Positions 22,810 through 23,255 of a stretch of DNA of 59,912 bases are shown one piece after another. Every line of letters begins with the position of its first letter. Within the stretch, counting starts at the first letter, position 1. This stretch comes from Rickettsia typhi (GTDB taxonomy: Bacteria > Pseudomonadota > Alphaproteobacteria > Rickettsiales > UBA1997): NCBI GenBank assembly GCA_945875925.1, contig CAMCME010000003.1, positions 1 through 59,912 of the forward strand. The letters are read 5' to 3'. Position numbers and translations under genes: made by a program. Below the pieces are notes generated by a model that made no database searches, was not told the DNA's origin, and saw nothing but the letters and a program-made list of their open reading frames with translations.

Positions 22810-23255
22810 ATGTCATTTTTACAAAAAAATTCGGATCACTTTTTACTTTTTGTAAAAGTGACTCCGAATTCTATACCAAACTAAAAATCTTTACTCTCAA
22901 TAAAGTTTGTTTGGTATGTGTGGGGTCCCCACAAAGTGGGGCGCCGTTCGTACGGCGTAAAATAAAAACTATACCAAACTAAAGATATTTAGTTTGGTAT
23001 AGTAAAAATAAGATTGGCAAAATTGTTCTTGATGAAAAAAATCAAGAATATTTGAAAGTGAATGTAGCAGCTGCTCCTGAAGATGGTAAAGCGAATGAAG
23101 AAATAATAAAATTTTTCGCTAAAATTCTAAAAATTCCCAGATCAAAAATTGAAATTTTACGAGGTGAGATTTCGCGGATTAAGATTTTGAAAATCACGCC
23201 CGCTGCCATTTCGAGCGTAAGCGAGAAATCTCTTCAAGATTTGTTGATTATCTGA
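22810..23255 (+). pseudogene. yggU: DUF167/YggU-family gene interrupted by a MITE
   Basis: Removing 22874-23001 restores MSFLQKNSDHFLLFVKVTPNS-SKNKIGKIVLDEKNQEYLKVNVAAAPEDGKAN in one frame. Confidence 0.85.
22874..22999. mobile_element. 126-bp MITE with TA target duplication (IS630/Tc1-mariner type)
   Basis: Perfect 12-bp TIR TACCAAACTAAA; TA at 22872-73 and 23000-01; near-identical copy at 41158-41282. Confidence 0.9.

What the first reader, a model, noticed from the sequence alone, without database searches (positions are those of the whole stretch)
22810..23001. TA-duplicating MITE caught inside yggU: the empty site can be rebuilt exactly
Seen: deleting the 126-bp element and one TA joins ...CCG AAT TCT|AGT AAA AAT AAG... 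into a continuous DUF167 frame (VKVTPNSSKNKIG). The insert adds an in-frame TAA. This fixes the ends (TACCAAACTAAA TIR) and the TA duplication. Known: TA duplication is the signature of IS630/Tc1-mariner elements. Related copies are at 37099, 41158, 59767 and 2558, so the family is dense and has been recently active. I do not recognise it as a named element.
Basis: partly seen in the sequence, partly recalled or inferred. Interest (0 to 1): 0.7.

Follow-up and report, generated by a model that had tools for sequence, protein, structure and literature searches.

The report
Mobile mini-element splitting the yggU gene
A 126-base non-coding jumping element of the IS630 type has landed inside the small gene yggU of an uncultured freshwater Rickettsiales-like bacterium, and river populations of the same species still carry the intact, empty site, which proves the insertion and its TA duplication but makes it a well-documented case of a known kind of element.

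Summary
Window 22874-22999 is a 126-bp element with TACCAAACTAAA... inverted ends, flanked by TA on both sides. It splits a DUF167/YggU gene after codon 21 and brings an in-frame TAA.

Removing the element and one TA gives a 105-aa ORF that matches Pfam DUF167 (E 1e-25). This ORF aligns without a gap to intact yggU in nine congeners.

Decisively, contigs from four riverine metagenome runs skip exactly these 128 bp (TA..TA) at about 99% flank identity. The predicted empty site therefore exists in nature. Lake runs carry the filled site.

The genome holds 13 full copies (88-100% identical), and all 12 with both ends intact are TA-flanked. Two larger sister MITE families (159 and 169 bp) share the terminus. 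There are about four copies of a ~950-bp IS630-family IS with TACCAAATAAAC... ends, also TA-flanked. Congeners carry IS630 copies whose ends match the MITE over the first 17-18 nt.

This is a new MITE family of a known kind, like RUP/IS630-Spn1.

One extra point: the element is modular. Two TIR hairpins flank a core that is conserved across two genera and has a covarying hairpin. That core is unexplained.

The parts
22811..22873 (+). 5' part of yggU (DUF167), codons 1-21 up to the TA target
   Evidence: MSFLQKNSDHFLLFVKVTPNS aligns with the N-termini of congener YggU proteins.
22872..22873 (.). Left copy of the duplicated TA target
   Evidence: the empty-site contigs have a single TA here (joint 22871|23000, 2 letters ambiguous).
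22874..22999 (+). 126-bp non-autonomous IS630-type MITE
   Evidence: 13 full copies at 88-100% identity, all TA-flanked. No ORF. Folds as four hairpins, z = -9.3.
22874..22917 (+). Left hairpin module: outer TIR TACCAAACTAAAAATCTTTAC plus an inner inverted copy ...GTTTGTTTGGTA
   Evidence: (I9). The first 17-18 nt are identical to the ends of IS630 copies in congeners G052 and G012.
22919..22970 (+). Conserved core: GGGGTCCCC, hairpin CCCCAC-AAA-GTGGGG, hairpin CGCCGT-TCGT-ACGGCG, then an A-rich tail
   Evidence: found in two genera of the family. Four of the six pairs of the second hairpin covary.
22972..22999 (+). Right hairpin module: 28-bp palindrome TACCAAACTAAAGATATTTAGTTTGGTA, which carries the outer right TIR
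   Evidence: I4: 16-nt arms, 100% complementary. A solo TA-flanked copy lies at C21:22479-22506.
23000..23001 (.). Right copy of the duplicated TA target
23002..23255 (+). 3' part of yggU (codons 22-105 of the rebuilt gene, first base at 23001 inside the TA), now without a start codon
   Evidence: tblastn finds residues 22-105 at 100% identity. The only listed in-frame start is TTG at 23052 (67 aa).
23203..23297 (.). Second, unrelated palindromic repeat that supplies the C-terminal tail and stop codon of yggU
   Evidence: its arms recur at least 40 times in the genome. Searches show raised contig depth at 23200-23311. Congener proteins diverge after ...RIKVLKI.

Best explanation
Window 22874-22999 is a non-autonomous transposon (MITE). 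It is mobilised in trans by an IS630-family (Tc1/mariner-type DDE) transposase.

Proposed mechanism. The transposase binds the TACCAAAC... inverted ends, excises the 126-bp unit and inserts it at a TA dinucleotide, here in the context TC-TA-GT (CTAG). Repair of the staggered cut duplicates the TA.

The insertion happened in the lake lineage of this species after it split from the river lineage. It broke yggU after codon 21: 128 bp were added, causing a frameshift and a TAA three codons in. yggU is dispensable in this genus, so the allele persists as a pseudogene.

Shown here: the ends, the TA duplication, the natural empty site, the copy family, IS630 elements with matching ends, and the gene disruption.

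Inferred: that the IS630 transposase is the mobilising enzyme, which IS copy supplies it, and the cut-and-paste chemistry. The chemistry is taken from what is established for IS630 and ISY100.
For: Empty site. Contigs of 4.5-28.8 kb in the riverine runs X8, X9 and X10 (depth 8-97), and one of 2.1 kb in X11, cover both flanks and skip 22872-22999 plus one TA. There are only about 8 SNPs in roughly 1170 bp.

Filled site. It was assembled independently in the lake runs X1 and X2: their contigs run 26-27 nt into the element from each flank.

Rebuilt ORF. It matches DUF167 at E 1e-25 and is gapless against nine congeners.

Copy family. There are 13 full copies, and 12 of 12 complete ones are TA-flanked. 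The base before TA is C at 48 of 81 TA-flanked ends, which gives a CTAG-like target.

IS630 in this genome. DDE_3 hits abut TACCAAATAAAC... ends followed by TA at C53, C62, C69 and C75. Left ends with the HTH ORF lie at C10, C20, C74 and C76.

IS630 in relatives. Complete elements of 947-975 bp have TACCAAA... ends; L051-L053 have TA on both sides and L054 on the right side only (L051-L054). G052 and G012 copies carry TACCAAACTAAAAATCTAT, identical to the MITE end for 17-18 nt. The fused transposase matches NF033545 (IS630 family) at 157 bits over its full length, plus PF13358 and PF01710.

Precedent. RUP/IS630-Spn1 with a TA target (PMC2229807).
Against: No IS630 copy with the exact MITE-type end (TACCAAACTAAAAATCT) is present in this assembly. 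The IS pieces assembled here have TACCAAATAAAC(T/A)ATCT, identical at about 13 of the first 19 nt. The assembly breaks inside every IS copy, so an intact transposase gene in this genome is not demonstrated. The one middle piece (C53) has a stop, and the gene needs a frame change at an A7 run.

Sequence alone cannot distinguish 'TA duplicated' from 'a 128-bp element inserted between T and A'. The IS630 link decides this by analogy.

Of three copies checked, only the yggU one is polymorphic between river and lake. The C35 copy is shared and C42:5817 was uninformative.
Confidence: 0.88

Rival explanations
1. The element is a REP/REPIN-like or RPE-like palindromic repeat. It would be spread by a different agent, such as a Y1/RAYT transposase or recombination/gene conversion, and only resembles an IS630 MITE.
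For: The core has a REP-like build: an invariant GTGG-containing head followed by a GC-rich hairpin that covaries between species. Other palindromic repeat families in this genome behave like Rickettsia palindromic elements (earlier notes). The yggU 3' tail is made by such a repeat.
Against: No Y1_Tnp/RAYT gene was found in the 97%-complete genome. The outer ends, not the core, define the mobile unit at every copy. TA flanks every copy, and the empty site retains exactly one TA. The ends are identical to IS630 ends in congeners. The insert is 128 bp, is not in frame and carries stops, unlike RPEs.
Confidence: 0.05
2. The composite is not one ancient MITE. It is a miniature composite transposon: two independently mobile mini-elements (the 44-bp and 28-bp TIR hairpins) inserted at the TAs on either side of a resident structured core, and together they now move it. 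Mobilisation is still by IS630 transposase, but the origin and the unit of selection differ.
For: Each hairpin module is itself bounded by TACC...GGTA, and the left and right modules have TA or TG next to them inside the element. A solo 28-bp palindrome with TA on both sides lies at C21. In other species the same core is flanked by different hairpins. A core without TACC hairpins lies at C40:9436.
Against: The solo palindrome can equally be a deletion between the 23-nt direct repeats 22871-93 and 22969-91 (D1). No empty site for a solo module was found. The hairpin-core-hairpin order is the same in all species, which fits vertical descent of one element with co-evolving ends.
Confidence: 0.25
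3. The empty riverine allele is derived, not ancestral: the MITE excised precisely, or was deleted by TA microhomology, in the river lineage.
For: Cut-and-paste elements do excise. The two alleles differ by exactly the element plus one TA.
Against: All nine congeners with yggU have the empty state, so empty is ancestral. The river allele keeps the conserved Val at the position of window base 23074, where the disrupted allele has Ala. That fits an allele that was never interrupted. It would also require a scarless restoration of the ORF.
Confidence: 0.05

Closest known systems
RUP (repeat unit of pneumococcus) mobilised by IS630-Spn1, Streptococcus pneumoniae (Oggioni & Claverys 1999, as reviewed in PMC2229807)
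   Same: About 107-126 bp and non-coding, with stops in the reading frames. TIRs resemble those of a resident IS630-family IS. Insertion is at TA with TA at both termini. There are tens to about 100 copies with high copy-to-copy identity, and insertions can inactivate genes.
   Different: No sequence relationship. The host is an uncultured freshwater Rickettsiales-like alphaproteobacterium. Here each end is a complete small hairpin, and the interior is a core conserved across genera. A natural empty site is documented directly.
IS630 / ISY100 (bacterial Tc1/mariner-type DDE insertion sequences)
   Same: Transposase with HTH_Tnp_IS630 and DDE_3 domains (NF033545 match). Short TIRs, TA duplication and a CTAG-like target preference (the IS630 preference for CTAG is from my own knowledge of Tenzen et al. 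1990). Some family members use a frameshift to make the full transposase (PMC5009743).
   Different: The 126-bp element has no transposase. The local IS is short (about 950 bp). Its gene is split at a conserved A7 run.
Correia elements / NEMIS of Neisseria
   Same: 100-155 bp with TIRs, TA duplication and strong hairpin-forming transcripts. They are found next to and inside genes (PMC2229807).
   Different: No sequence similarity was looked for or expected. No cognate transposase is known for Correia elements, whereas here an IS630 partner is evident.
Rickettsia palindromic elements (RPE)
   Same: A palindromic repeat inside a protein gene of a Rickettsiales-type genome.
   Different: RPEs are tolerated in frame and translated. 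This insert is 128 bp, shifts the frame and stops translation after three codons.

Membership tests
IS630-derived MITE (RUP-like) | Terminal inverted repeats matching those of an IS630-family IS | tested here: met
   The MITE end TACCAAACTAAAAATCT(T/A)T is identical for 17-18 nt to IS630 ends in congeners G052 and G012. It matches about 13 of the first 19 nt of the IS ends in its own genome.
IS630-derived MITE (RUP-like) | Duplication of a TA target | tested here: met
   Natural empty site with a single TA in four riverine runs. 12 of 12 complete copies are TA-flanked. The rebuilt ORF is gapless against orthologues.
IS630-derived MITE (RUP-like) | Small, non-coding, multicopy | tested here: met
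   126 bp with stops. 13 full and 4 partial copies at 88-100% identity.
IS630-derived MITE (RUP-like) | IS630-family transposase gene present in the same genome | tested here: inconclusive
   Five DDE_3 hits, with about four left and four right IS ends. However, every copy is broken by the assembly, the ends are a sequence variant, and C53 has a stop.
IS630-derived MITE (RUP-like) | Mobilisation by that transposase | not testable with these tools
   Needs a binding or transposition assay.
IS630 family transposase (partner IS) | HTH_Tnp_IS630 N-terminal domain plus DDE_3 catalytic domain, with a full-length match to NF033545 | tested here: met
   The L053 fused reading scores 157.5 bits (cut-off 100) over residues 12-283 of 288. 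PF13358 E 3e-37 and PF01710 E 2e-20.
Rickettsia palindromic elements (RPE) | In-frame, translated insertion that leaves the host protein intact | tested here: not met
   The 128-bp insert is not a multiple of 3, and a TAA follows after three codons.
REP/REPIN with RAYT | A Y1 (RAYT) transposase gene in the genome | tested here: not met
   PF01797 has no match at E <= 0.01 in the 97%-complete genome; the controls gave matches.

The most novel reading that the evidence does not exclude
The conserved core is a functional structured module in the manner of REP sequences. It consists of an invariant 20-nt head, CCCCAC-AAN-GTGGGGCG, plus a hairpin kept by compensatory changes across two genera. Unlike REPs, it would be carried and spread by DDE (IS630-type) hairpin ends that are swapped between species, not by a RAYT. 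The MITE would then be a vehicle for a selected RNA/ssDNA or protein-binding element, not just junk between two TIRs.
Probability: 0.25. Interest if true: 0.6.

Novelty: new member of a known kind. Interest (0 to 1): 0.35.

Why it matters
This is a clean natural 'before and after' pair for a bacterial MITE. The same species has an intact yggU in river populations and a MITE-split yggU in lake populations. That fixes the element's ends and its TA duplication without any assumption.

It also shows that IS630-type MITEs are currently reshaping the small genomes of uncultured freshwater Rickettsiales-like bacteria.

Practically, it gives annotators three MITE families and an IS630 with a slippage site to mask in these MAGs. 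These repeats are where the assemblies break. It also flags yggU here as a pseudogene.

It does not reveal a new mechanism.

Tried and rejected
- **Rfam scan of 22700-23150 at E <= 10:** only sub-threshold chance hits, so the element is not a known RNA family.
- **RAYT/Y1 transposase search in the own genome:** none found, so the REP/RAYT reading was dropped.
- **Search of the own assembly for an IS630 with the exact MITE-type end:** blastn with IS copies from congeners found only the variant-end IS, in pieces.
- **Second and third polymorphic sites:** the C35 copy is filled in both river and lake runs. At the C42:5817 copy the river strain lacks the left flank, so it is uninformative.
- **MITE flanks seen in the metagenomes but absent from this assembly:** these could be other strains or species and were not pursued.
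- **Core copy at C40:9436 as a possible conserved 'source' locus:** it is just an intergenic copy between a histidine kinase gene and pstB.
- **Terminator reading of the core:** rejected by eye from the sequence (no terminator scan was run). The A-rich tract follows the hairpins on the + strand and the T-rich tract precedes them on the - strand.

Full report
**What is there**

The window is contig C3 of a 1.67-Mb, 35.8% G+C, 80-contig genome. Relatives found with the transposase are freshwater MAGs labelled Rickettsiales or Alphaproteobacteria. Runs that hold the region are lake, river and freshwater metagenomes.

At 22811 an ORF starts MSFLQKNSDHFLLFVKVTPNS. It then runs into ATA CCA AAC TAA.

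The inserted unit is 22874-22999 (126 bp), bounded by TA at 22872-73 and at 23000-01. Its outer arms are 23 nt and 96% complementary.

Deleting the element and one TA gives a 105-aa ORF. It matches Pfam DUF167/YggU at E 1.1e-25 in a single stretch. The insert is 128 bp, so it shifts the frame as well as bringing a stop.

**Is the rebuilt site real?**

Nine congeners have an uninterrupted yggU that aligns without a gap across the junction. One of them (G003) reads VTPNSSKNK exactly, and three others (G017, G014, G006) read PNSS.

More directly, Logan contigs of four riverine runs from one study join base 22871 to base 23000. These are runs X8-X11, from four samples, with contigs of 2.1-28.8 kb and depth 8-97. 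The skip is 128 bp, 'TA..TA', with two ambiguous letters. There are only about 8 differences in 1170 flanking bases.

So the empty site, with one TA, exists in a population about 99% identical to this genome.

In the lake runs X1 and X2, contigs run from each flank 26-27 nt into the element and then break. The filled site was therefore assembled independently and is not a binning artefact.

The river allele encodes an intact protein. At window base 23074 it carries Val, the residue conserved in congeners, where the disrupted allele has Ala.

Because all outgroups are empty, the event is an insertion in the lake lineage, not an excision in the river lineage.

**The family**

- blastn finds 13 full-length copies (88-100% identical) and a few partial ones. 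All 12 copies with both ends intact have TA on each side.
- Genome-wide, 81 of 104 motif ends with a full flank are preceded by TA, against a background of 6.3%. The base before TA is C in 48 of those 81, so the preferred target is CTAG-like, as at yggU (TC-TA-GT).
- Only the yggU copy sits in the middle of a conserved ORF. The others are intergenic or at gene ends.
- Two sister families share the terminus and the TA flanks. One is 159 bp, with about 30 copies, many at contig ends. The other is 169 bp, with 9 full and 15 partial copies.
37099 is the 169-bp family. 59767 is the 159-bp family. 2558 is a lone 93-bp element without TA flanks.

**The partner transposase**

Five DDE_3 hits lie in the genome. 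Four of them (C53, C62, C69, C75) end a few bases inside ...AGTTTATTTGGTA followed by TA.

Left ends lie at C10, C20, C74 and C76. They read TA|TACCAAATAAAC... and an HTH ORF starting MAKAYSLDLR or MPRAYSRDLR follows. The pieces tile a ~950-bp IS that the assembler broke.

Complete relatives of 947-975 bp have TACCAAA... ends. L051-L053 have TA on both sides; L054 has TA on the right side only.

In G052 and G012 the IS ends read TACCAAACTAAAAATCTAT. That is identical to the MITE's end for 17-18 nt and similar for about 30 nt.

The transposase is encoded in two frames that overlap at a conserved TATAAAAAAAC. In two species both frames are open. Reading through with one A fewer gives a 288-aa protein. 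It matches the NCBIfam IS630 equivalog over its full length (157.5 bits), together with PF01710 and PF13358.

Frameshifting and transcriptional realignment are already known in the IS630 family (PMC5009743).

The enzyme that moved the yggU copy is therefore either the variant IS acting across types or a copy that was not assembled.

The 126 bp fold into four consecutive hairpins (-33 kcal/mol, z = -9.3):

1. A 44-bp TIR hairpin.
2. CCCCAC-AAA-GTGGGG.
3. CGCCGT-TCGT-ACGGCG followed by an A-rich tail.
4. A perfect 28-bp palindrome that carries the right TIR.

A solo TA-flanked copy of the 28-bp palindrome lies at C21:22479-22506. It could be a minimal element. It could equally be a deletion between the 23-nt direct repeats inside the MITE (D1).

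In other species of the genus and in a second genus of the family, the same core is flanked by TA-bounded TACC...GGTA hairpins of different sequence. It sometimes occurs in tandem arrays. An exact-pattern search found the core only in this family among 301 genomes of the order.

In 13 hand-picked variants the first hairpin is invariant. The second keeps 98.7% pairing, with compensatory changes at four of six pairs. No shuffle reaches the observed covariation score (0 of 500), and the slid controls collapse.

No RAYT gene is present. No Rfam family matches. What maintains the core is unexplained.

**Comparison and verdict**

The element meets every sequence-testable criterion of an IS630-derived MITE. 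The closest described case is RUP/IS630-Spn1 of S. pneumoniae (PMC2229807).

It is not an RPE-type in-frame insert. It is also not a REP/RAYT system.

It is an unnamed family in a little-studied lineage, and the empty/filled polymorphism is unusually clean. The mechanism, however, is the known one, so it is a new member of a known kind.

yggU is missing from 7 of 18 congeners searched, so its loss is probably of little consequence.

The only part with potential for more is the conserved, covarying core.

Noticed in passing
G000:C76:3995-4425 and C10:39945-40369; L051-L054: The IS630 transposase is encoded in two overlapping frames that meet at a conserved TATAAAAAAAC (A7) run in at least five species. 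With one A fewer, the fused protein is a full-length IS630-family match. This looks like programmed slippage, which is known in this IS family.
   Followed up: partly
window 22919-22970; L028-L045, L117-L122: The MITE core (CCCCAC-AAN-GTGGGGCG plus a covarying 6-bp hairpin plus an A-rich tail) is conserved across two genera. The flanking TIR hairpins differ between species. G047 has tandem arrays with periods of 93 and 48 bp.
   Followed up: partly
window 23203-23297: A second, unrelated palindromic repeat encodes the C-terminal tail (PAAISSVSEKSLQDLLII) and the stop codon of yggU. Its arms recur at least 40 times in the genome. The gene has therefore been hit by two repeat families.
   Followed up: partly
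G000:C21:22479-22506: A solo 28-bp palindrome, TACCAAACTAAAGATATTTAGTTTGGTA, with TA on both sides. It is also present in the river strain. It is either a minimal element or a deletion remnant of a 126-bp copy.
   Followed up: partly
window 21197-22801: The ORF upstream of yggU is only the C-terminal half of CarB (534 aa) and starts shortly after the tmRNA gene. carB may be split into two genes in this genome.
   Followed up: no
window 23074: The disrupted yggU allele has Ala where the intact river allele and the congeners have Val. This may be a first sign of relaxed constraint after the insertion.
   Followed up: partly
genome-wide contig ends (e.g. C43, C44, C58, C61, C68 at ~145-147 bp): Many contigs end about 147 bp inside a 159-bp or 169-bp MITE or an IS630 end. 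These repeats are a main cause of the fragmentation of this MAG.
   Followed up: partly
congeners G005, G009-G012, G015, G018: Seven of 18 congeners show no yggU by tblastn, so the gene appears dispensable in this genus.
   Followed up: no
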